From Escherichia phage F13, in the sequence record OP745617: a stretch of 64,000 nucleotides of DNA. One strand, 5' to 3'. This document shows positions 7,722 through 40,798 of this stretch, piece after piece. Every line of letters starts with the position of its first letter. Position 1 is the first letter of the stretch. The translations under genes were made by a program, and so were the position numbers. The notes under the pieces were generated by a model. It made no database searches, was not told where the DNA came from, and was given only the letters and a program-made list of their open reading frames with translations.

Positions 7722-10031
7722 TTATTTTGCTGATTTCAGCGCGGCTATCTCTGCCTTGAGTTCACCTATCTGATCCATGAGTGCAAGAATAGCCTCGTGG
7801 TGCAATGCCGCTGCCACTCCGTAAGTGTCGACTGATTTGACATCCTTGACCACGGTCCCATCAGCCAGTTCCATATCACCTGAAACAGAAACGGCTTCTG
7901 GGAAATCAACCTCAACATCTTGAGCCACGAATCCAAAACCTACTTTCGCGCCGTCAGTTTTCAATCGCCATGACACGCCATTAATCCTTTTCATCTTGGT
8001 CAATGGGTCTTGAATCTTGACAATCTCATCCTTGATTCTGACGTCTGAAGAAGTACCCCAACCGCCAGCGCAAACAGCATTACCTGCTTGCAGGAATTGG
8101 AAATACTTGTTGGTGCCTACACCGCCAGCAGTAGTGGTCATTATGGTCACATCGCCATTACGCTCAGAATATACCCGACCATACGTTGCTGTGTTGGCAC
8201 TGTTCTTAAAATCGATGAACGATTGGTTGTTGGTGTTTCCAATGAACGTCGCTTGACCGCCGCGAGTTATCAACTGGCCTTTTGCATCAACGTTCCCAGA
8301 GCTGGTGATCAAGTTATTTGGCACAAGCAAGTTGCCGTTGTCGACAAAATCGAATGCCTGGCTGGCGGCAGTCGTCAAATTGGTAACGGTCAATCGCATG
8401 TAATAAGCGCCACCGATAACAGCGCGAATGCGCATGCGACCTTCAGCCTCAACAGCAGTCCCCACTCGATACTCCGACATGACGCTGCCGCCGTCAGCGG
8501 TCGTGCCTGGACCTGGCATTGCCGTATCGCCGTTTATAACAGACCATTGCGTATTCGCCGCTGTGAATCCACCGGATGCACGAATCACCCAAACGCCTGA
8601 AAAGTTGCGCGGCAATACTTCATCTGTTGCAAGGTTGTTACGACCGTAAGCTGGGCTTGAGTTAGAAGCTCTTAGCGCAACGCTTCCCAAAGAGTTCGCA
8701 CCAGAACTTAAAAGCGAAACACCTCTTACATATCGCGGAATGGTGAATCCTTCTCCATTGATGAATGCGCCGCCAGCACCTGCGACAACCGTTCCTGATG
8801 CTGGTTCACTTGCAGGGCCGGACCCGTGGAAGTTGATGTTGCCAGTGATGTTTGGCAGGAAGGATTCCATTATCATTCCGTCATTTGACGAGTTGCCGCC
8901 ATCGCCACGGGCAAAAAGTGCACGAACACTTCCTGTCTGAACGCCGTTACGGTCTGGAACACGGAATGTTGTTGTTCCGTTGCCTAAAGAATACTTTCCG
9001 CGCTTCAGCGGGTCAGCCAACCAATCTGCATCAGCAATAGGCGTAAGCATTTGCGCATAAGCCCAAAGCTCAGGCCAGTCTGCACGGTTAAGCAATTGTC
9101 CGTCGGCAACAACTTCATACGACTGAATATAGGCGCGACTGTCGCGCAGGTGAAAGTCACCAACGCCATAGTTCATTACGCCGTTCATGCTTGGGCCAAC
9201 GGTGCCAGTATTTACTAAGTTCTCAACCCAACGCTTCGTCGCGGCATCATAATCATTGACGGGGTCGCCAGCCAGTGGTGTTGAGCCTTGTGGACGAATA
9301 TTCAACCATGCTTGCGCATTGTCTGCTGATCCTGTGCCGCCCATGGAAGTTGGAACGATGCTCTGATCAGCAACAGGGCCAAATCCAAAGGCATCTTTCA
9401 TTCCCTGAATAGTCGTTTGACCTGTGCCGCCGTTTGCAATTGGAATTGTGCTTTGTGAACTATAAATTTGCGCCCAAGGCGACCATGAAGATGTTTCAGC
9501 ATTGTACCTTCTTTGGTACAAGTTATTTGAGTTGAATGTGGTGTATCTTTGAATGCAACTTTCCAAAGATATGGCAGTCTGCAGGACTTCCAATATCCCA
9601 GCTTCCAAGGCTACTGGATAGTTGAGGGATGTCTGCGCAGCAGCATTTGAATATTGGTAATATTGCCCAAACCAAGTTCCAGTCAAAGAGTTCAGATTTA
9701 TCCCCGACGGCAAAAGTCCAAAATTCCTGACAGTATTGGTCAAAGATGCGGCAGTTGTTCGAATGGAAAGCATGTCGCCTGCCGCCCATGCGCGCGCTGC
9801 AGTTCCTTCCTGTGCACGCTGCACAGTCAGGACGTTCCCAACCACGGCTGTTACAGTGATGATTTCAAATTGGAGGCCTGTTGCAGCGTCGACGATTGTC
9901 GCCACTACACGCTCGTTTGCACCCAAGGTCGGAAAGCCCGACCCTGAGCGGATTGTGATTGTGGTGTCTGAAGTCGTCGCTGGCTGAGCGAGCGCGACCT
10001 CAAAGTTGTTTTTGAATATTAGCCTTGGCAT
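7722..10031 (-). CDS. tail fibre/tail spike protein with C-terminal intramolecular chaperone (S74-type) domain
   Basis: 769 aa, Gly/Thr/Ser/Asn-rich; C-terminus has SDVRIKDEI…DGAKVGFGFVAQDVEVDFPEAV, typical of the auto-cleaving chaperone domain of phage fibres; GAGGA RBS. Confidence 0.7.
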   Translation of the reverse strand: MPRLIFKNNFEVALAQPATTSDTTITIRSGSGFPTLGANERVVATIVDAATGLQFEIITVTAVVGNVLTVQRAQEGTAARAWAAGDMLSIRTTAASLTNTVRNFGLLPSGINLNSLTGTWFGQYYQYSNAAAQTSLNYPVALEAGILEVLQTAISLESCIQRYTTFNSNNLYQRRYNAETSSWSPWAQIYSSQSTIPIANGGTGQTTIQGMKDAFGFGPVADQSIVPTSMGGTGSADNAQAWLNIRPQGSTPLAGDPVNDYDAATKRWVENLVNTGTVGPSMNGVMNYGVGDFHLRDSRAYIQSYEVVADGQLLNRADWPELWAYAQMLTPIADADWLADPLKRGKYSLGNGTTTFRVPDRNGVQTGSVRALFARGDGGNSSNDGMIMESFLPNITGNINFHGSGPASEPASGTVVAGAGGAFINGEGFTIPRYVRGVSLLSSGANSLGSVALRASNSSPAYGRNNLATDEVLPRNFSGVWVIRASGGFTAANTQWSVINGDTAMPGPGTTADGGSVMSEYRVGTAVEAEGRMRIRAVIGGAYYMRLTVTNLTTAASQAFDFVDNGNLLVPNNLITSSGNVDAKGQLITRGGQATFIGNTNNQSFIDFKNSANTATYGRVYSERNGDVTIMTTTAGGVGTNKYFQFLQAGNAVCAGGWGTSSDVRIKDEIVKIQDPLTKMKRINGVSWRLKTDGAKVGFGFVAQDVEVDFPEAVSVSGDMELADGTVVKDVKSVDTYGVAAALHHEAILALMDQIGELKAEIAALKSAK

Positions 10032-32813: not shown

Positions 32814-33542
32814 ATGATGGCAGAAAAGTTAACCCAACTTACAAGCCCCAACCAAACTGACAAATCAAGTATGTTTGCCGCGCTGCAGGGAATGCTGGAC
32901 CGTGGCAAGTATACCACTGACGGCATGATTCCTGCACAAGTAATATCTTATGACCGCAAACAGAATTTAGCAGTCATAAAGCCTGTTATTCATTTCGTAA
33001 GTCTTGATGATAAACCAGTGGAGCGTCAACCCCTGGTGTCAATTCCTGTGTTGGCAATCGGCGGCGGCGGCTTTGTAATCAACTTTCCTCTGAAAGAGGG
33101 TGATTTGGGCTGGATATTCGCTGGCGACCGCGAGTTGTCGACATTCCTTGAAGAATTGAAGCCGACCGCGCCTACCAATGGTCGCGCGAAAACTTTCGCT
33201 GATGGACTGTTCATACCGGATGTATTTCGAAAATACACCATAAGCGGAGAGGATGCAGGCTCAATGGTAATCCAGTCACTCAGCGGCGCTGTCCGCATTG
33301 CATTAAGTGATGACTCGATAAACATAACTGCATCCGCTGGAGTAAATGTGAAAACACCAATAACCACTATCGACCAACAATTGATAGTTAATGGAAAGGC
33401 AACGTTCAATGGTGGTATAGAAGGGAAAGAAGGAACGACGGCAACGCTTCCGACTGGCACAACAATCGGCGGCATAAATGTATCCACTCACGGTCACATA
33501 GGTAACGGACCTGGAAACAGAACTGGGGATATGATAGAATGA
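32814..33542 (+). CDS. baseplate spike/gpV-like protein (candidate)
   Basis: AAGGAG RBS, ATG 32814/32817; Gly-rich C-terminus ending GGINVSTHGHIGNGPGN. Confidence 0.45.
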   Translation: MMAEKLTQLTSPNQTDKSSMFAALQGMLDRGKYTTDGMIPAQVISYDRKQNLAVIKPVIHFVSLDDKPVERQPLVSIPVLAIGGGGFVINFPLKEGDLGWIFAGDRELSTFLEELKPTAPTNGRAKTFADGLFIPDVFRKYTISGEDAGSMVIQSLSGAVRIALSDDSINITASAGVNVKTPITTIDQQLIVNGKATFNGGIEGKEGTTATLPTGTTIGGINVSTHGHIGNGPGNRTGDMIE

Positions 33543-34810
33543 GTGCACAATATTCTTACATAGTAAGCACTGGTGTAATAACCATCGACACAGCCGATTT
33601 GCTGGCTGACGTTCAAAGTGAATGGATTGAGTCATTAGGGGTCGGGCTTGACGTTGATGCATCGACACCGCAAGGCACCCTAATCGCGACAGAGACTTTG
33701 GCAAGAACTTCAGTCATGAAGAACAACGCCGAGCTGGGAAGTCTCATCAACCCTAATTATTCATATGGCGTATACCTTGATGCCATCGCGGCATTGCTTG
33801 GTATTGAGCGAACGAAAAACATCAGCACGATGTTGAAAGGAATTACCGCAGAAGGAACGCCGCTGTTGGAAATTCCTGCTGGAAGTTTGCTGACGGATTC
33901 AAACGGCACATACTGGTATGTTCTTGAAGACGTTCAAATCACTTCGACTGGCAAGACAAGCAACATGACTCTTGCATCAAAAGATTATGGCTCATTTACT
34001 GTTGCCCCTGATGAAGAGTTTACAGTGGTGCAAGGATATGACGTCATCGGATGGTCAAGAACGTATTCAACATCAGCAACGACGACCGTACCAGGTACGC
34101 AATACATGGGCGACGGAGCGTTAAAGGCCGCTCGCGTAAAGCGCCTTTACCAGCAGGGAATTGCATCGCTTGGTGCTATTCGCGCTCGCGCCATGTCGGT
34201 CGACGGCGTGGAATCGGTGATGGTCGTGGAGAACGACACGGGATTGCCTGGAACGGTGCGCGGCATCACCTTTTCAACGCCTAACGGTGTCTGGGTGTGC
34301 GCAAGCGGAACGTTCGATAAGCAAGTTTTTGCTGAGACTATTTTCAAGGCAAAGATGGGCGGCCAGCCGTGGGACTTTGGTGCTACCAACCAGGGTGATC
34401 CAGTCAACTCGCCTGATGGAATAGAAGTTGTCGACGAAGAATCGCAACTGTCTTATTTCGTAAAGTTCAACACTGCTGTCATATATGACTTGTATGTCGA
34501 TATTACTGTTGTAAGAGGCACCGCAACCGCCGATGCCGAATCTATTATTGCCGCTGTGTTGAATTACGGTAATGGAAATTTTAACGGCGAGCAAGGATAT
34601 GCAGTGGGCCAATCTCAATCTTCTTTTGAGATTGCTTCAGCAGTGTCTTGCGAGTATCCAGGTCTGTACATTAAAGATTGCAAAATTGCAGCAGTAAAAA
34701 GCGGACAGGCAGCGCCAAATTATCCATCCGATTACGGCAGCGAGTGGATTGCCAATCCTTGGGATAAGGCTAATACTATGCGCGGCTTCATCAACGTTAA
34801 ATTTGTGTGA
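33539..34810 (+). CDS. baseplate J-like protein (candidate)
   Basis: 423 aa, ATGA coupling, position after the spike-like gene. Confidence 0.45.
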   Translation: MSAQYSYIVSTGVITIDTADLLADVQSEWIESLGVGLDVDASTPQGTLIATETLARTSVMKNNAELGSLINPNYSYGVYLDAIAALLGIERTKNISTMLKGITAEGTPLLEIPAGSLLTDSNGTYWYVLEDVQITSTGKTSNMTLASKDYGSFTVAPDEEFTVVQGYDVIGWSRTYSTSATTTVPGTQYMGDGALKAARVKRLYQQGIASLGAIRARAMSVDGVESVMVVENDTGLPGTVRGITFSTPNGVWVCASGTFDKQVFAETIFKAKMGGQPWDFGATNQGDPVNSPDGIEVVDEESQLSYFVKFNTAVIYDLYVDITVVRGTATADAESIIAAVLNYGNGNFNGEQGYAVGQSQSSFEIASAVSCEYPGLYIKDCKIAAVKSGQAAPNYPSDYGSEWIANPWDKANTMRGFINVKFV

Positions 34811-34816
34811 GGAACT

Positions 34817-37555
34817 ATGCAAAAGTTTGACACAAACCTGTTGCAAAACCTTAAGTGGATGCAGAACAATGCGCCAAACATTACATCTTTGGTGCAAAAG
34901 AAAAGTGACTGGTATGAAAGATACCAAGATCAGTTTTGGACTGACTGGTACAATAACATTTTTAACATTGACACTTGTGATGCAATGGGCATTTATATTT
35001 GGTGCGACATTCTTTGCATACCAAGAGACTTTGTGGACTTAAGCAATTATGAGCACAACTGGGCGTTTGGACCGACGCGCGACAACTTTGAAGGTGCGGA
35101 CAACATCGGCGGCAACTTCTTTGGTGCTGGCGGGAAGGTTGTAAAGAATATCGAAGAAGCGCGCATACTTCTTAAGCTTCGTTATCTGACGCTTACAAGT
35201 GATGGCCGCATCGAAAGTATCAATCGCATGCTTAAGTGGATTTTCAACCGTGGAGAGGCTTGGGATTACTCTTCATCACGCTACGCATATGTGACCGACA
35301 ATACTCAAGGCGCAGTGTCTTCGTCTGAATCAACCAATGGCTCATTCCTTCTGTACGACTGGCAAGGGTCAACTGAGATTCAGCACGATTATAAGCAGAT
35401 ACTTTTAAGCCATGGCAACAACGCCGGACTGACCATCAGCGGAGTATCAGGCACCGTGTCACGGATGGCGCATCCAGATTGGTACTCATGGGGGAATGGC
35501 TCCGGCACAGGTCTTGTCGGCGGCGACACCAGACAGTATGGCGGCCCTGATTACTATGGACAGTTGTGTGGTGATTACCCAGGCGAGGCCATAGAGAATT
35601 TTGCCAACGCAGTAAGGGTAGTCAAGACTGCTTCAAGCGGTGAGCCTGTGTATTCTTTGGCAGATAATCCAAGCGCCCAATCCATTGCGCTTCCTTCGCA
35701 GGCTGGCGTTAACGTTTGTTATAGCTTCTACATAAAGGTGCTTTCTGAAAATGTCGCTTCTGTTTCGGTTACAGAGAATAGTGATGCATCTAGTAATGGA
35801 AAGTTGTTTGACCCAGTCACTGGGCAGTTCAACTTGGACCCGTATTTGAGCTATTTCATCACAGGCAAATTCGATGGAGTAAGAAGGGAATCAAGCCGTG
35901 GTGGCATCAAAGCAATCGGCGGCGATTGGTATCGAATCTGGATTGTAGAGCAGACGGCAACCGCTGCGTCTGGAGTAAGTACCAGCTTTTCAATAGAGTT
36001 GAAGGCGACTGCCGCTGGATCAACTCAAACTCGTGAATTGCCTGAAGGGTCTGATGCACTTCTTTTTGGATACTCGATTTGCGTCTGCGACCCTGTTCAG
36101 AATCCAAATGGACCTGAGCCTTATTTTTATGGAACGCAAAACCCTCCTTCTGACGGAACAGCAATACTGTCTGTAACGGCGGGAACGCTCAACAACATCT
36201 CCTGTGCAAACGGACCGCTGACGACAAGAAACGGTGTGGTTGGCGAGTCATTCATGCAACCTGGCTCATCACTTGCATACTCTGGCTCAATCGGCGGCTA
36301 CCCGTACCCAGGGAACGCCACATTGATTGCAGAGACTGACGGCATCAGACGCTCATGGAACGTTAGCAGGCTTGATGGAGTACCGCCGCCGCCGACCGCT
36401 GACTATTACATGGAATACGTCATCGGACCTTATTTCGCCAACAACCTGTCAGACAACTTTAAGACGCTAGTTGGCGACAGGGATGAAGGATTCTTGCCAG
36501 CAAATGCCGGAATACGCTGGCAGCGTTACCAAGAAGTCGCAGACTTATCTGATATTGATTTGACTGTCAGCAACATAACAGACACGCGAGTAGGATTTGA
36601 AACGGAAGGTGTTGCTTGGATTAACACTGACGGTATCATCAGAGTTGGCGGCATTAACGAGTGGCCGCTGAACAACTTCAACGGTGTGATACGCCAGCTT
36701 GAATCTTTGAAAGGTGTAAACCAGGTCATCGACGGCGCGCTTGTCAACGACTATTCAATCTCAAAAGCATCAAGAGATGACTTTGGTCGTGAAATCCCAC
36801 GTGCCGCAATCACTAACTACTGGAGATACACACAGCCCAATGACGGCACATCTTTTGGCAATATCATTGAGGATGGCGCAAACACGGTCACAGCGACGCC
36901 AATCAGCGGTGTACCCAACCAGTTCCCATCATTCAAGCTTTCCGCTACAATAGGGACTGTGCCAGCGTCCGGTTATGCACGCGCTGTACTTGCTACTAAA
37001 TACACTGGCACCCTGACTGGTCCTTTATCATTCATTGCGGTAGTCAAAAACAACACGGTTAACGGTCAAAAACTTTTTGTAACTGTACCGGATGGGATGG
37101 GTGGCTATATCCCTAAATTCTACAACATAGGCGCAGGTGATTTGCAACGTATCGAAATTGACCTTGCCGCTGAGATTGTTGAAGGCGCTACCTGGGATGG
37201 ATCAACAGGCGGCATCAGCATCGGTTTGATATCAGGGAAAGACTTGCCGACCGAAGTTGGTACGACTCTTGAACTTGATATTTTAAGCTTGATGCTTGTG
37301 TCTGGTAATACGATGAATGCGCTTGCAATTTCAACAAGCGAAGATTTCGCAAAGAAGACTGCGACTTCTATATACATCAAAAACCCAGGATCACTTGCCA
37401 CTGGAGTTCAATTGATTGCTTCTAATGGTGATGTTGTAGCAACAGTAAACTTTCCGAGAAGTGCTGCTGGTGGTTATGTTTCAAGCATGAACATAACTGA
37501 CTTAACTGGTGATTGGGCATCAACCCTTTTATCAAAAATTAAATACATCGTGTAG
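34817..37555 (+). CDS. large baseplate-associated/tail fibre protein (912 aa)
   Basis: Size, Gly/Ser/Thr-rich composition and position upstream of the distal tail fibre. Confidence 0.5.
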   Translation: MQKFDTNLLQNLKWMQNNAPNITSLVQKKSDWYERYQDQFWTDWYNNIFNIDTCDAMGIYIWCDILCIPRDFVDLSNYEHNWAFGPTRDNFEGADNIGGNFFGAGGKVVKNIEEARILLKLRYLTLTSDGRIESINRMLKWIFNRGEAWDYSSSRYAYVTDNTQGAVSSSESTNGSFLLYDWQGSTEIQHDYKQILLSHGNNAGLTISGVSGTVSRMAHPDWYSWGNGSGTGLVGGDTRQYGGPDYYGQLCGDYPGEAIENFANAVRVVKTASSGEPVYSLADNPSAQSIALPSQAGVNVCYSFYIKVLSENVASVSVTENSDASSNGKLFDPVTGQFNLDPYLSYFITGKFDGVRRESSRGGIKAIGGDWYRIWIVEQTATAASGVSTSFSIELKATAAGSTQTRELPEGSDALLFGYSICVCDPVQNPNGPEPYFYGTQNPPSDGTAILSVTAGTLNNISCANGPLTTRNGVVGESFMQPGSSLAYSGSIGGYPYPGNATLIAETDGIRRSWNVSRLDGVPPPPTADYYMEYVIGPYFANNLSDNFKTLVGDRDEGFLPANAGIRWQRYQEVADLSDIDLTVSNITDTRVGFETEGVAWINTDGIIRVGGINEWPLNNFNGVIRQLESLKGVNQVIDGALVNDYSISKASRDDFGREIPRAAITNYWRYTQPNDGTSFGNIIEDGANTVTATPISGVPNQFPSFKLSATIGTVPASGYARAVLATKYTGTLTGPLSFIAVVKNNTVNGQKLFVTVPDGMGGYIPKFYNIGAGDLQRIEIDLAAEIVEGATWDGSTGGISIGLISGKDLPTEVGTTLELDILSLMLVSGNTMNALAISTSEDFAKKTATSIYIKNPGSLATGVQLIASNGDVVATVNFPRSAAGGYVSSMNITDLTGDWASTLLSKIKYIV

Positions 37556-37565
37556 AGGAACGGCA

Positions 37566-39350
37566 ATGCCAACACTTATTAACAGACCTTTCGCGCAAAG
37601 CGGTGATGTATCCGTGGTGCCGGATGCAAGTCCAAGCGGTTATGTGAACTTCCAGCGCGGCTACACCCCTGACTATGCACTTGCGCTGGAAGCCGGAAAC
37701 GTCGCCGCGAAAGCAGTTGAACGTGAGTCGATGAACTGGTTGCTGAATCTGATCACCGACAACCTTATGTTCATCCAGGACCACGGCGCTCAACAGTATT
37801 TCTCGTCTGACTTGAAGCCAGATGGATACCCGAAAAATGCCATCGTTGTCAGCAACTCTGGCACCCCTTCAGCGCCTGAATGGCGCATTTTCCAGAGTGT
37901 GGTAGACGGCAACACCAGCGCAGTCCCAGCTAACGGCGAAACGGAATCTTGGCAGGAATTGACGCTGCCTAGCGAAGCGAGAAAATATATTCCTATGCCT
38001 GCTGGCGGCGATGCGCAAAACCCGTATTTTGTTCGCGGACTGATTTCAAACTTTGTGGACTTTGATAATATCACGACTTCCACAACTATTGTCATTCAAT
38101 CTGATGCCGTTGCCGCTCTCTGCTCTAACATCCCGAACGCGGTTGGTGCGACGAAGGTTGCAGGTCGTCTCCAGGTTTGCGCTTGGCAGGTTGATGCGCA
38201 GACTTTCGCCCTGCAACAATACACGTCAATGAACGGATATGTTTTCACCCGCTCTTATACTTCTGGTGCTTGGAGTGCTTGGATTCAAAATGCAACTGTT
38301 CAAGACGTGCAAATCGGCACGCCGAATCTTGCATCAGGTAAAGGCGCACAAGATATAATCCTTACCGTTCCGGCAGGTTATGCATGGCCGCCGTCAGCAG
38401 GTAGTCGCCTGACAATTGTCAATGATGTAACGACTACCGGACCTGTTACCGTGACCATTGGTGCAAACAAAGTTGCAGTCCTTGGATTCGACGGCGGCGA
38501 GCTGCCAGCAGGGTCCATCGTCGGTCTTCTTCCTTTTACTATTATTTATGACGGCACCGTTTGGCGTCTTCTTCAAGCATTCGGCGCGGCGCAAATCGGT
38601 GTCGATGCTAGTGAGCCGCAACAGTTTGTTACAAAGCGCCAACTCGATGCTTTGGCTGCGAAATTGATAACTATGGGTGATGTATTCGAAGTCGGTGAGA
38701 CTCGATTCTTGACTAATGGCACTAACCCAAATACTAAACTGGGCGCTTATGGACAGGTTTGGACCAGATTGCCTGACAACATGGTCATCAGGACATCTGG
38801 CACAGCAAGAAACGGCCTTGCCACTGGCGGCGCGGACTCTGTTACTCTTACCGCCGCCATGCTTCCTCTGCACAATCACAGCGTGAACATAACTACGCGA
38901 CAGAGCGGTCCATGGTCCAATACCACTGGAGGCGCAGGCAACCATAACCACACAGGCGATACCAGTCAAAACGGCGCTCACGTGCACGGAATGGATGCTG
39001 CTGGTAATCATCATCACGACAGTGGCTGGGGTGAGGCTTATGCAGACCAGGCTAGATACGGGGTGTATGATGGCACGCACAATAACCTTGGAAGTGCAAG
39101 GTCTGATTATGACAACTACAAATACAACACCTCGACTAACGGTAGCCACGTCCACAATATTCAATCTTCTGGGTCACACACCCATGGGTTGAATATAAAT
39201 TTCGCTGGCAATCACAGCCATAGCTATACCCTTCCCGCTCACACTCACGATGTGGTCGGTAACACTGGCAATGCAGGGCAGTCCGTCCCAACGGCTGTTT
39301 CAACTCTGCCGCGATATGTCGTCTTGAACGGCTGGTACAGAAGCGCATAA
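37566..39350 (+). CDS. tail fibre protein with histidine-rich HxH repeat region
   Basis: GAGGAA RBS, ATG 37566; C-terminal HNHSVN…NHNHTGD…AHVHGMDAAGNHHHD…SHVHNIQSSGSHTHGLNINFAGNHSHSYTLPAHTHDV. Confidence 0.65.
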   Translation: MPTLINRPFAQSGDVSVVPDASPSGYVNFQRGYTPDYALALEAGNVAAKAVERESMNWLLNLITDNLMFIQDHGAQQYFSSDLKPDGYPKNAIVVSNSGTPSAPEWRIFQSVVDGNTSAVPANGETESWQELTLPSEARKYIPMPAGGDAQNPYFVRGLISNFVDFDNITTSTTIVIQSDAVAALCSNIPNAVGATKVAGRLQVCAWQVDAQTFALQQYTSMNGYVFTRSYTSGAWSAWIQNATVQDVQIGTPNLASGKGAQDIILTVPAGYAWPPSAGSRLTIVNDVTTTGPVTVTIGANKVAVLGFDGGELPAGSIVGLLPFTIIYDGTVWRLLQAFGAAQIGVDASEPQQFVTKRQLDALAAKLITMGDVFEVGETRFLTNGTNPNTKLGAYGQVWTRLPDNMVIRTSGTARNGLATGGADSVTLTAAMLPLHNHSVNITTRQSGPWSNTTGGAGNHNHTGDTSQNGAHVHGMDAAGNHHHDSGWGEAYADQARYGVYDGTHNNLGSARSDYDNYKYNTSTNGSHVHNIQSSGSHTHGLNINFAGNHSHSYTLPAHTHDVVGNTGNAGQSVPTAVSTLPRYVVLNGWYRSA

Positions 39351-39358
39351 GGTGATTT

Positions 39359-40003
39359 ATGATTAATGCAAACGTAATATCTAAAGGGACCGGATGCAGC
39401 ATGGATGTTGCTGAAAAATGGGTCGACCCCTTCAAGCAGGCTTGTGAGCACTACGGAATCAAAAGCAAGAATGCCATCGCGGCGTTGCTTGCAAACGTAG
39501 GAGTAGAAACAGGCAGTATGAAGACTTTTGTGGAGAACTTGAATTACTCCGCTCAAGGTCTTGCGAATACATGGCCTAGCCGTTACAGCGCCAGCGGTCG
39601 TTTCGGTGGCGCACCAAACTCCTTGGCATTGTCTATTGCCCGTAAACCAATGGAAATCGCCAATAATACATATGCAAACCGAATGGGCAATGGTTCGGTA
39701 GCATCTGGCGACGGTTGGAAGTACCGTGGCCGTGGTGCCATTCAGCTGACTGGAAAGGCTAACTATGCAGAGTATTCAAAGCAATCAGGGTATGATGCAT
39801 TGAATAACCCTGACATTTTGACTGAGCCGAAACACATCGCTGACAGCGCGGCATGGTTCTTCAAGAACAGCGGTTGCATCCCACTTGCTGATGCTGGCGC
39901 ATTTGATTCGACTGTGAAGCGGATTAACGGGGCCGCGCCGAATACGGCTAACCATGGAGATTTGCGACGGAAGCGTTACAAGGATGCACTAGCAGTTATG
40001 TAA
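39359..40003 (+). CDS. endolysin, glycoside hydrolase family 19 (chitinase-like)
   Basis: AAGGTGA RBS; GVETGSMKTF and YRGRGAIQLTGKANYAEY match GH19 catalytic-region signatures. Confidence 0.8.
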   Translation: MINANVISKGTGCSMDVAEKWVDPFKQACEHYGIKSKNAIAALLANVGVETGSMKTFVENLNYSAQGLANTWPSRYSASGRFGGAPNSLALSIARKPMEIANNTYANRMGNGSVASGDGWKYRGRGAIQLTGKANYAEYSKQSGYDALNNPDILTEPKHIADSAAWFFKNSGCIPLADAGAFDSTVKRINGAAPNTANHGDLRRKRYKDALAVM

Positions 40004-40028: not shown

Positions 40029-40259
40029 TTATTTTACGGCTTCAACCTGGACGGGCGGCGCGGAACTTGTATCAATGTCTGGCAAGTCGAAGTAATACCC
40101 CGCCATGCCAATCACGCCAACAATCGCGGCCCGTGCCACCTTGTTGCTGATTGACTCCCCAATAAGCTTTACCAACAGGGACAAGATTTGAGACGTCAAA
40201 GCCTTTTTCAGCCTTTTGTTTTCTTCCAAATCTTTCTGCATAACTACCACCCATGTCAA
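40029..40259 (-). CDS. small protein with one hydrophobic helix (76 aa)
   Basis: ATGA coupling to upstream gene; AAIVGVIGMAGYYF hydrophobic segment. Confidence 0.4.
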   Translation of the reverse strand: MTWVVVMQKDLEENKRLKKALTSQILSLLVKLIGESISNKVARAAIVGVIGMAGYYFDLPDIDTSSAPPVQVEAVK

Positions 40260-40798
40260 CGCACTTCCTGTGTCTTAACATTACCTGAAGCATCTCTTAA
40301 GGGCAGTGGATAGTAGGCCATTTGGTAGTCTGATACGCCTTCAACATGATAAAACACGATTACGTCTTTGCTGTTGATGAGCATGTTAACGACATCTGAT
40401 TTATCTTCTGGAGTGAGTATGAGTGCGCCGCCTGTCCTGCTGTCTACTGCAACAGGGTATGTCTTATCGACAAGGCCGCTGTCCAATGTATTATACCTGA
40501 CAACGATTTCAGGGGCATCAACTTTTGCAATTGACATTCCGAACACAAACGACACGACTTGGCGACCGCGATCATTCATTACGCACATCTTTTCCTTATC
40601 AAACCTTTCCTTTATCACATCATATTTGTTCCAACAAAATTCGAACGATTGGCCGTTGTTAAAATATCTCGTTAATACTTTTGCATTGCTGTTTGGCGGC
40701 GTAAACATACTTTCAGCCGCTGCACTTTTGGTGAAGAACAAAACTGTCAGCATAGCCATGATGATGATCAAAACAATCTTTAAGTTTTTCGATTTCAT
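40256..40798 (-). CDS. secreted protein of unknown function (180 aa, signal peptide)
   Basis: AAGGTG RBS; MKSKNLKIVLIIIMAMLTVLFFTKSAAAE signal-peptide-like N-terminus. Confidence 0.5.
   Translation of the reverse strand: MKSKNLKIVLIIIMAMLTVLFFTKSAAAESMFTPPNSNAKVLTRYFNNGQSFEFCWNKYDVIKERFDKEKMCVMNDRGRQVVSFVFGMSIAKVDAPEIVVRYNTLDSGLVDKTYPVAVDSRTGGALILTPEDKSDVVNMLINSKDVIVFYHVEGVSDYQMAYYPLPLRDASGNVKTQEVR

What the first reader, a model, noticed from the sequence alone, without database searches (positions are those of the whole stretch)
38870..39260. Histidine-rich HxH repeat array in the distal tail fibre
Eight or more HxH/HxHxH motifs occur within ~130 residues (HNH, NHNH, HVH, HHH, HVH, HTH, HSH, HTH). 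Such arrays coordinate metal ions in the needle-like tips of some phage fibres (for example T4 gp37), suggesting a metal-stabilised receptor-binding tip.
Basis: partly seen in the sequence, partly recalled or inferred. Interest (0 to 1): 0.45.

Follow-up and report, generated by a model that had tools for sequence, protein, structure and literature searches.

The report
Metal-binding histidine needle of a phage fibre
The histidine repeats are real and mark the needle-shaped, probably iron-stapled tip of a tail fibre of an E. coli phage, the same design as the tip of the phage T4 long tail fibre; this was already pointed out in print for a near-identical sister phage, so it is ordinary.

Summary
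Observation confirmed. The gene at 37566..39350 (+) has exactly eight HxH motifs (aa 436-561, nt 38871-39248). They hold 16 of its 19 histidines. No shuffle of the whole protein reached eight.

The window is Escherichia phage vB_EcoM_SP13 (genus Wifcevirus). The protein is the genus-conserved one-piece tail fibre. Its N-terminal 370 aa are homologous to the baseplate-anchored part of Pseudomonas phage Pa193 gp47.

The C-terminal 230 aa are a collar, needle and head tip homologous to T4 gp37 (profile E 1.4e-20 to PDB 2XGF; hhalign 98.9%). The collar also matches T4 gp10 C-domain. There is no match to gp12.

All 16 paired histidines are invariant in eight orthologues and recur as G-x-H-x-H in at least 3,500 homologues.

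By analogy with solved structures, each HxH from three chains would form a six-histidine octahedral Fe(II) site, giving eight sites per fibre. The metal and the trimer fold were not tested here; monomer AlphaFold models were uninformative.

Humolli et al. 2025 (PLoS Biol) already describe this tip and its HxH motifs in the ManiWeber/Bas99 orthologue. 'Distal tail fibre' is imprecise, because this is a whole fibre.

The parts
37566..39350 (+). Gene for the conserved one-piece tail fibre (594 aa + stop). It is the orthologue of Bas99_0031 / Bas100_0031 / WFH_00047.
   Evidence: ORF. The ATG at 37566 is the start annotated in all GenBank orthologues. It is 100% identical to OP352608.1. PHROG 5717 'tail protein', E 1.7e-174.
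37569..38681 (+). N-terminal baseplate anchor and shaft (aa 2-372).
   Evidence: phmmer match to PDB 9b45 chain 2, Pa193 gp47 tail fibre residues 4-368, E 9e-32. In Pa193, residues 1-340 form three 'beads', and loops 38-52 dock on gp46 (PMC11456595).
38673..38870 (+). Collar domain (about aa 370-435), ending in the conserved 'GGADSVTLtaamLP' lead-in to the first HxH.
   Evidence: hhalign of profile A1 to T4 gp10 residues 450-535: 89% probability, E 2e-6. hmmsearch to 2fkk, E 1.2e-4. Homologues carry Pfam PF21939 Gp10_C or PF07484 Collar. The AF2 monomer has pLDDT 88-90 here.
38871..39017 (+). Ascending needle strand (aa 436-484) with HxH 1-4 (H436/H438, H460/H462, H472/H474, H482/H484).
   Evidence: Motif positions. 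Aligned to T4 gp37 883-931. All eight outer His are invariant in 8 orthologues.
39018..39146 (+). Head (distal tip) domain, aa 485-527, rich in aromatic residues and Asn (GWGEAY...YGVYD...DNYKYNTST). This is the presumed receptor-contact surface.
   Evidence: It lies between the ascending and descending HxH runs, as the head does in gp37. It is the most variable part among orthologues, at 74-98% identity against at least 93% elsewhere. The same head motif occurs in a Xenorhabdus bovienii fibre, P0001. Receptor contact is inferred, not tested.
39147..39248 (+). Descending needle strand (aa 528-561) with HxH 5-8 (H528/H530, H538/H540, H550/H552, H559/H561).
   Evidence: Motif positions. Aligned to T4 gp37 966-1000. 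All eight outer His are invariant.
39249..39347 (+). C-terminal return segment (aa 562-594) ending in '...YVVLNGWYRSA', which rejoins the collar.
   Evidence: W and R of the terminal 'GWYR' are invariant in the 13 sequences of A1 and at least 90% conserved in the 81 of A2. It aligns to the gp10 C-terminus 'YITVYRWIRI'. In the AF2 model it is strand 226-230 with pLDDT about 85-88.
34817..37555 (+). Upstream baseplate wedge protein (912 aa), the probable docking partner of the fibre.
   Evidence: aa 4-185 match Pa193 gp46 'baseplate wedge 2' residues 6-193, E 3.8e-41, and Pfam DUF2612. The gp46 loop 80-113 binds the fibre in Pa193. Docking in this phage is inferred.

Best explanation
The eight HxH motifs are the metal-binding ladder of a T4-gp37-type receptor-binding tip at the C-terminus of the conserved Wifcevirus tail fibre.

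Proposed mechanism:
1. Three chains dock by their N-terminal domains on the baseplate wedge protein encoded just upstream.
2. At the far end each chain forms a small collar (aa ~370-435), runs outward as one strand carrying four HxH (aa 436-484), and forms a small head (aa 485-527).
3. The chain then runs back as a second strand carrying four more HxH (aa 528-561) and finishes in the collar (aa 562-594).
4. In the trimer this gives a six-stranded needle. At each HxH level the two histidines of each of the three chains point to the axis and bind one metal ion octahedrally. That makes eight ions per fibre, most likely Fe(II) as in T4 gp37 and R-pyocin fibres.
5. The ions keep the three chains in register and stiffen the thin needle that presents the head domain to the cell surface.

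What is shown here: the motifs, their conservation, and homology to gp37, gp10 and Pa193 gp47. What is inferred: trimeric needle geometry, metal occupancy and identity, and receptor contact by the head.
For: Motifs and statistics:
- Eight HxH motifs at the stated positions, far above chance.

Homology to known structures:
- Profile against all PDB sequences: best hit 2xgf_A (T4 gp37 tip), E 1.4e-20. Next come the gp10 C-domain 2fkk (1.2e-4) and another 'long tail fiber', 8kec (7.6e-4). No unrelated His-rich proteins appear.
- hhalign to gp37 785-1026: 98.85%, E 4e-17. To full-length gp37: 98.6%, aligned at 860-1003. Direct BLASTP gives E 6e-5.

Layout:
- T4 has HxH at 883, 915, 929 | 966, 980, 989, 998. 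The window protein has them at 436, 460, 472, 482 | 528, 538, 550, 559.
- The first-to-last spans are 49 aa (ascending) and 34-35 aa (descending) in both proteins.

Conservation:
- All 16 outer His are invariant in 8 Wifcevirus orthologues. The two His outside the pairs (483, 505) vary.
- dN/dS is 0.03-0.09 in every region.
- HxH columns are invariant or at least 90% conserved in 81 distant homologues. In 126 homologues, 1760 of 2093 His sit in HxH pairs.

Context:
- The N-terminus is homologous to the baseplate-anchored part of Pa193 gp47. The upstream gene is homologous to its docking partner gp46.

Literature:
- HxH x 3 chains forms an octahedral Fe(II) site in gp37, pyocin fibres and spikes (PMC6116203).
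- A collar/needle/head tip with 6-7 HxH is reported for both Bas63 fibres in the cryo-EM study of that phage (PMC12609058).
Against:
- Monomer AlphaFold2 models were poor in the needle (mean pLDDT 44 and 59; needle below 50).
- The window protein itself passes no Pfam or NCBIfam threshold.
- Part of the profile score to gp37 comes from the repeated G-x-HxH composition itself (HMMER bias 32.6 of 76.9 bits).
- Gene numbering in the paper (Gp32) differs by one from the GenBank tag of the orthologue (Bas99_0031; Bas99_0032 is the endolysin). That match rests on the description, not on an accession.
- The receptor-binding role of the head is untested. The fibre is highly conserved while host recognition in these phages depends on O-antigen, which the authors assign to the other, T-shaped fibre.
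Confidence: 0.85

Rival explanations
1. Same metal-stapled needle, but the fibre is not a host-range-determining receptor binder. It has a conserved 'mechanical' or secondary-receptor role, such as triggering or irreversible binding to a conserved surface structure. The variable T-shaped fibre (7722..10031, minus strand) does the specific O-antigen recognition.
For: - The fibre is 93-100% identical outside the head across the genus, under strong purifying selection.
- Humolli et al. propose exactly this role (PMC11990801).
- A second fibre with an intramolecular chaperone domain is present in the window.
Against: - The head domain is the one region that varies: 74-98% identity and the highest dN, 0.10. 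That is expected if it contacts something variable.
- In T4 the homologous head is the receptor contact (as summarised in PMC12609058).
- This rival concerns the role of the fibre. It does not conflict with the nature of the HxH array.
Confidence: 0.3
2. The region is a T4 gp12-type receptor-binding domain, whose single HxH site held zinc in the crystal, rather than a gp37-type multi-site needle.
For: - PHROG hits labelled 'tail collar protein/fiber' cover the region.
- gp10, gp12 and gp37 share related collar-type domains; I state this from memory and did not read the source here.
- gp12 does have an HxH motif (PMC6116203).
Against: - hhalign of the family profile to full-length T4 gp12 gives 1.5% probability over 26 columns.
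- No gp12 chain appears among PDB hits at E up to 10.
- There are eight HxH in two opposed runs, not one.
Confidence: 0.03
3. The histidine richness is a low-complexity or chance feature, or an exposed metal-scavenging or catalytic His cluster (for example a metallo-hydrolase HxHxD motif), with no structural ladder.
For: - The segment is compositionally biased: H, G, N, S and T make up 60%.
- 'HHHDS' and 'HTHDV' superficially resemble HxHxD motifs.
Against: - The pairing exceeds composition-matched shuffles; 59 of 200,000 reach eight.
- The outer His are invariant while the middle residue varies.
- The motif is periodic, G/P-x-H-x-H, and alignable with gp37.
- There is no Pfam or NCBIfam enzyme hit.
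Confidence: 0.02

Closest known systems
Tail fibre 'Gp32' of Escherichia phage ManiWeber (Bas99) and its Wifcevirus orthologues (Humolli et al. 2025, PLoS Biol, PMC11990801)
   Same: It is the orthologous gene in the same position, between the baseplate wedge gene and the endolysin. Nucleotide identity is 91.8%. Amino-acid identity to the window protein is 98.6% (aa 1-370), 98.5% (collar), 93% (needle) and 84% (head), and all eight HxH are conserved. [quoted passage not shown]
   Different: Only point differences, concentrated in the head. The published statement rests on an AlphaFold 3 model (ipTM 0.64), not on experiment. The paper's gene number is one higher than the GenBank locus tag.
T4 gp37 long-tail-fibre receptor-binding tip (PDB 2XGF; Bartual et al. 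2010)
   Same: Collar, needle and head layout with HxH motifs in an ascending and a descending run. The spans between first and last HxH are nearly identical (49 and 34-35 aa). Profile homology is E 1.4e-20, 98.9% probability. In gp37 the HxH triplets bind seven Fe ions (as summarised in PMC12609058 and PMC6116203).
   Different: - Eight motifs here (4+4) against seven (3+4). The extra motif, H460/H462, sits where T4 and many homologues have an 'FDYG' motif.
- The head sequence is unrelated.
- The collar is closer in sequence to gp10 than to gp37.
- Here the tip sits on a 594-aa one-piece fibre, not on the distal half of a four-protein fibre.
- The adjacent downstream gene is the endolysin, not a gp38-like chaperone. 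The rest of the window was not searched for one.
Felixounavirus fibres (Bas63 LTF gp27 and STF; PMC12609058)
   Same: [quoted passage not shown]
   Different: Different shaft and anchor domains, different head sequences, and six or seven rather than eight motifs.
Pseudomonas phage Pa193 (Pbunavirus) tail fibre gp47 (PDB 9B45)
   Same: The N-terminal ~370 aa are homologous (E 9e-32). The upstream wedge protein is homologous to gp46, which carries the fibre-attachment loop.
   Different: gp47 is 962 aa, and its C-terminal part does not align with the HxH tip; only insignificant fragments match. The HxH tip is thus a different distal module on a shared anchor.
R1/R2 pyocin fibres and the iron-loaded central spikes (P2 gpV, phi92 gp138)
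   Same: The same elementary site: HxH from three chains gives an octahedral six-His Fe(II) site on the three-fold axis (PMC6116203).
   Different: These have a single site in a different fold, not a ladder of eight. There is no sequence homology to the fibre tip.

Membership tests
T4 gp37-type receptor-binding tip (collar-needle-head) | Significant sequence homology to the gp37 tip | tested here: met
   hmmsearch of profile A1 against PDB: 2xgf_A, E 1.4e-20. hhalign 98.85%, E 4e-17. BLASTP of the single sequence, E 6e-5.
T4 gp37-type receptor-binding tip (collar-needle-head) | Two opposed runs of HxH motifs separated by a short head insert, followed by a return to the collar | tested here: met
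   Four motifs at aa 436-484, a 43-aa insert, four motifs at aa 528-561, then a 33-aa C-terminal segment conserved with gp10 and the family.
T4 gp37-type receptor-binding tip (collar-needle-head) | Conservation of the paired histidines | tested here: met
   16 of 16 outer His are invariant in 8 orthologues. HxH columns are invariant or at least 90% conserved in 81 homologues.
T4 gp37-type receptor-binding tip (collar-needle-head) | Trimeric six-stranded needle with histidines on the three-fold axis | tested here: inconclusive
   Only monomer AF2 was available. The needle had pLDDT below 50 and no secondary structure. Fold searches were not significant. A published AF3 trimer of the orthologue reports this fold.
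T4 gp37-type receptor-binding tip (collar-needle-head) | Bound Fe (or another transition metal) at each HxH level | not testable with these tools
   Needs ICP-MS, X-ray fluorescence or anomalous diffraction on purified fibre.
Pfam PF21939 Gp10_C / PF07484 Collar domain | Score above the Pfam gathering threshold | tested here: not met
   The window protein gives no Pfam hit even at E up to 10. Its homologues P0001 and P0004 pass PF21939 and P0005 passes PF07484. The family profile matches the gp10 C-domain: hhalign 89%, E 2e-6; hmmsearch E 1.2e-4. It is therefore a divergent relative by transitive homology.
T4 gp12-type short-tail-fibre receptor-binding domain | Sequence homology to the gp12 C-terminal domain | tested here: not met
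   hhalign probability 1.5%. No gp12 chain among PDB hits.
Pbunavirus/Wifcevirus baseplate-anchored fibre (Pa193 gp47-like) | N-terminal anchor homologous to gp47 residues 1-340, and a gp46-like wedge partner | tested here: met
   aa 2-372 against gp47 4-368, E 9e-32. Upstream ORF aa 4-185 against gp46 6-193, E 3.8e-41.

The most novel reading that the evidence does not exclude
The eight-site histidine ladder could be more than a folding staple. The buried iron, or reversible loading and protonation of the His pairs, might act as a metal- or pH-dependent switch for adsorption. Or, in the spirit of the 'Ferrojan horse' idea, it might exploit host iron-uptake receptors. Separately, the head module shared with a Xenorhabdus fibre (GWGE...DNYKYNTST) might define a portable adhesin for a conserved enterobacterial receptor. 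Nothing here excludes these readings, and nothing supports them beyond the presence of the motifs.
Probability: 0.04. Interest if true: 0.6.

Novelty: already known. Interest (0 to 1): 0.12.

Why it matters
The practical value is annotation. In the SP13, WFC, FEC19 and ECML-117 records this gene is labelled 'hypothetical protein'. It can be labelled as a tail fibre with a gp37-like metal-binding tip.

The domain map gives usable boundaries for fibre engineering or head swaps in Wifcevirus phages: anchor aa 1-370, collar 370-435, needle 436-484 and 528-561, head 485-527.

It also adds one more case to a very large family (at least 3,500 proteins) in which the number of HxH rungs varies from 4 to 17 while the design is constant. 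It does not open a new question.

Tried and rejected
- Pfam and NCBIfam on the window protein gave no hits. Family assignment had to go through homologues and profiles.
- AlphaFold2 monomer on a 13-sequence alignment gave mean pLDDT 44; on an 81-sequence alignment it gave 59. Only the collar was confident and the needle was unstructured, as expected for an obligate interdigitated trimer. No multimer option was available.
- The first single-sequence protein search did not return the Wifcevirus orthologues. I took them from GenBank phage records instead.
- I tried to read Bartual et al. 2010 by DOI and PMC id, but it is not held. The properties of gp37 are cited from papers that summarise it.
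- The gp12-like reading was rejected.
- The antisense 256-aa ORF 38394..39164 was rejected as a gene. It is broken by extra stops in several orthologues, and it is a by-product of His codons (CAY), which read RTG on the other strand.
- Positive selection on the head was not supported. dN/dS is 0.08, and both dN and dS are raised there, which looks more like exchange or older divergence of that segment.
- I did not run the 1.84-billion-protein representative search. The capped search already showed at least 3,506 homologues.

Full report
**1. What is at the coordinates**

The finding lies in the ORF 37509..39350 on the + strand. The start used in all annotated orthologues corresponds to the ATG at 37566, giving a 594-aa protein.

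Its translation has HxH at aa 436 (HNH), 460 (HNH), 472 (HVH), 482 (HHH), 528 (HVH), 538 (HTH), 550 (HSH) and 559 (HTH). Eighteen of the 19 histidines of the protein lie in aa 435-565.

The clustering is not chance:
- In 200,000 shuffles of the whole protein, none reached eight HxH (mean 0.58, maximum 6).
- When only the His-rich 131-aa segment was shuffled, 59 of 200,000 reached eight (mean 2.3).
- The other 46 large ORFs of the window together have 7 HxH in 15,255 aa.

Six motifs are preceded by Gly at -2 and the first and last by Pro, giving a periodic G/P-x-H-x-H unit.

**2. Where the window comes from and what the gene is**

The gene is 100% identical to Escherichia phage vB_EcoM_SP13 (OP352608.1). 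It is 87-96% identical to 27 other records, all of genus Wifcevirus. It sits at the end of the baseplate module, after a Baseplate_J-like wedge gene (33539..34810) and a 912-aa gene (34817..37555), and before a GH19-type endolysin (39359..40003).

PHROGs places it in a 'tail protein' family, E 1.7e-174. Residues 2-372 match residues 4-368 of the Pseudomonas phage Pa193 tail fibre gp47 (PDB 9B45), E 9e-32. In the Pa193 cryo-EM study, residues 1-340 are the three 'beads' that attach the fibre to the baseplate, and loops 38-52 dock on a loop of gp46 (PMC11456595).

The upstream 912-aa ORF matches gp46 'baseplate wedge 2' over its first 185 residues, E 3.8e-41. The protein is therefore a complete, one-piece, baseplate-anchored fibre. 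'Distal tail fibre' in the T4 sense of a separate distal half-fibre is not accurate, although the HxH array is at its distal end.

**3. The C-terminal 230 residues**

A search with aa 363-594 found fibre proteins of Xenorhabdus, Pantoea, Serratia and metagenomes at 30-40% identity. Most carry Pfam PF21939 (Gp10_C) or PF07484 (Collar).

In their alignment the lead-in 'GGADSVTL..LP' and the HxH columns are invariant or nearly so, while whole G-x-HxH units come and go. A profile search with that alignment returned at least 3,506 proteins at E <= 1e-5 among only 8,000 candidates scored. tblastn finds the domain in 193 phage records, including many Felixounavirus fibre genes.

In the 126 homologues retrieved by the two searches the number of HxH per protein ranges from 4 to 17, and 1,760 of 2,093 histidines are in HxH pairs. 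Eight is an ordinary number for this family.

**4. Relation to solved structures**

| Comparison | Result |
|---|---|
| Family profile vs all PDB sequences, best hit 2xgf_A (T4 gp37 tip) | E 1.4e-20 |
| Same search, gp10 C-terminal domain 2fkk | E 1.2e-4 |
| Same search, another 'long tail fiber' 8kec | E 7.6e-4 |
| hhalign vs gp37 785-1026 | 98.85%, E 4e-17 |
| hhalign vs full-length gp37 (aligned 860-1003) | 98.6% |
| hhalign vs T4 gp10, collar only | 89%, E 2e-6 |
| hhalign vs T4 gp12 | 1.5% |

No unrelated His-rich protein appeared even at E up to 10.

The layouts correspond. T4 gp37 has tip HxH at 883, 915, 929 | 966, 980, 989, 998, and the window protein at 436, 460, 472, 482 | 528, 538, 550, 559. 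The span from first to last motif is 49 aa in both ascending runs and 35 versus 34 aa in the descending runs. The predicted needle is therefore about as long as T4's but has one more rung. That extra rung (H460/H462) lies where T4 and many homologues have an 'FDYG' motif.

The 43 residues between the runs (aa 485-527) take the place of the gp37 head. The last 33 residues, ending '...LNGWYRSA', are conserved with the family and with the C-terminus of gp10, and return to the collar.

**5. Conservation**

In eight Wifcevirus orthologues all 16 outer histidines are invariant. The only variable histidines are the middle one of HHH (His483 to Tyr in ECML-117) and His505 in the head.

Identity to SP13 by region:
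- Anchor: 98-100%
- Collar: 98.5%
- Needle: 93-97%
- Head: 74-98%

dN/dS is 0.025-0.088 in every region. The head has the highest dN (0.10) but also the highest dS (1.27), which points to older divergence or exchange of that segment rather than positive selection.

The head sequence (GWGEAY..ARYGVYD..DNYKYNTST) recurs almost unchanged in a Xenorhabdus bovienii fibre, and in weaker form in other homologues. It is unrelated to the T4 head.

**6. Mechanism**

The following is taken from the solved relatives. In gp37, R-pyocin fibres and the P2/phi92 spikes, the two histidines of an HxH motif from each of three chains form an octahedral six-His site that holds Fe(II) on the three-fold axis. The proposed role of these ions is to set the register of the three chains during folding and to stiffen the thin shaft (PMC6116203). 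The tip consists of collar, six-stranded needle and head, because each chain doubles back at the head (PMC12609058).

Applied here, this predicts eight axial metal sites per fibre. Homology and motif conservation are shown. Trimer geometry, metal occupancy, metal identity and receptor contact by the head are inferred.

**7. Structure prediction attempts**

Only monomer AlphaFold2 was available. With 13 sequences the mean pLDDT was 44. With 81 sequences it was 59, with the collar and the C-terminal strand at 85-90 and the needle below 50 without secondary structure.

**8. What is already published**

Humolli et al. 2025 (PLoS Biol, PMC11990801) isolated four Wifcevirus phages. [quoted passage not shown] They add that this fibre is highly conserved across the genus, and that it may have 'a more mechanical role' than the variable T-shaped fibre. 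Their model is an AlphaFold 3 trimer with ipTM 0.64.

The GenBank orthologue of the window gene in that phage is Bas99_0031, and Bas99_0032 is the endolysin. The paper's number is therefore one off from the locus tag. In this window, the orthologues of Bas99_0030 (34817..37555) and Bas99_0032 (39359..40003) have no HxH at all, so I take the identification as safe but inferred.

The T-shaped second fibre is also in the window (7722..10031, minus strand; PHROG tail fibre E 1e-205; Peptidase_S74 intramolecular chaperone).

**9. Verdict**

It had already been made for a near-identical orthologue. The design is common: T4, Felixounavirus, many prophage fibres and thousands of metagenomic proteins have it. 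Novelty is 'already known' and interest is low.

Remaining uncertainty concerns the metal (Fe(II) is most likely by analogy) and whether the head binds a receptor that matters for host range.

Noticed in passing
window 32817..33542 (+), HGH at about 33489..33497: The central baseplate spike gene matches Pa193 gp44 'tail tip', 4RU3 and phi92 gp138, E down to 6e-55. It carries a single HGH motif 15 residues from its C-terminus ('NVSTHGHIGNGPG'), conserved in Bas100. This looks like the iron-binding apex of the 'iron-loaded spike' type, so it is a second, separate HxH metal site in the same virion.
   Followed up: partly
window 7722..10031 (-): A second tail fibre gene (769 aa; PHROG 6921, E 1e-205) has a C-terminal Peptidase_S74 intramolecular chaperone domain (aa 662-714) and no HxH at all. 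It corresponds to the variable 'T-shaped' dual-RBD fibre described for Wifcevirus. It lies far from the baseplate module and on the opposite strand.
   Followed up: partly
window 34817..37555 (+): The wedge protein upstream of the fibre is 912 aa, but only its first ~185 aa match Pa193 gp46 (504 aa) and DUF2612. The remaining ~700 aa have no Pfam hit above threshold and match only a PHROG of unknown function. This is a large unexplained C-terminal extension on the fibre-docking protein.
   Followed up: no
window 39018..39146 (aa 485-527 of the fibre); protein P0001: The head-domain sequence (GWGEAY..ARYGVYD..DNYKYNTST) is about 70% identical to the head of a Xenorhabdus bovienii tail fibre, although the two proteins are only 37% identical overall. 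The head appears to be a portable module shared between a coliphage genus and a Xenorhabdus prophage or tailocin fibre.
   Followed up: partly
window 38394..39164 (-): A 256-aa antisense ORF overlaps the HxH region. It arises because His codons CAC/CAT read GTG/ATG on the other strand. It is interrupted by extra stop codons in several orthologues, so it is not a gene.
   Followed up: yes
window 40256..40798 (-): A 180-aa ORF with an N-terminal signal-like hydrophobic segment lies just downstream of the endolysin. It has no Pfam or PHROG match and is annotated hypothetical in orthologues.
   Followed up: no
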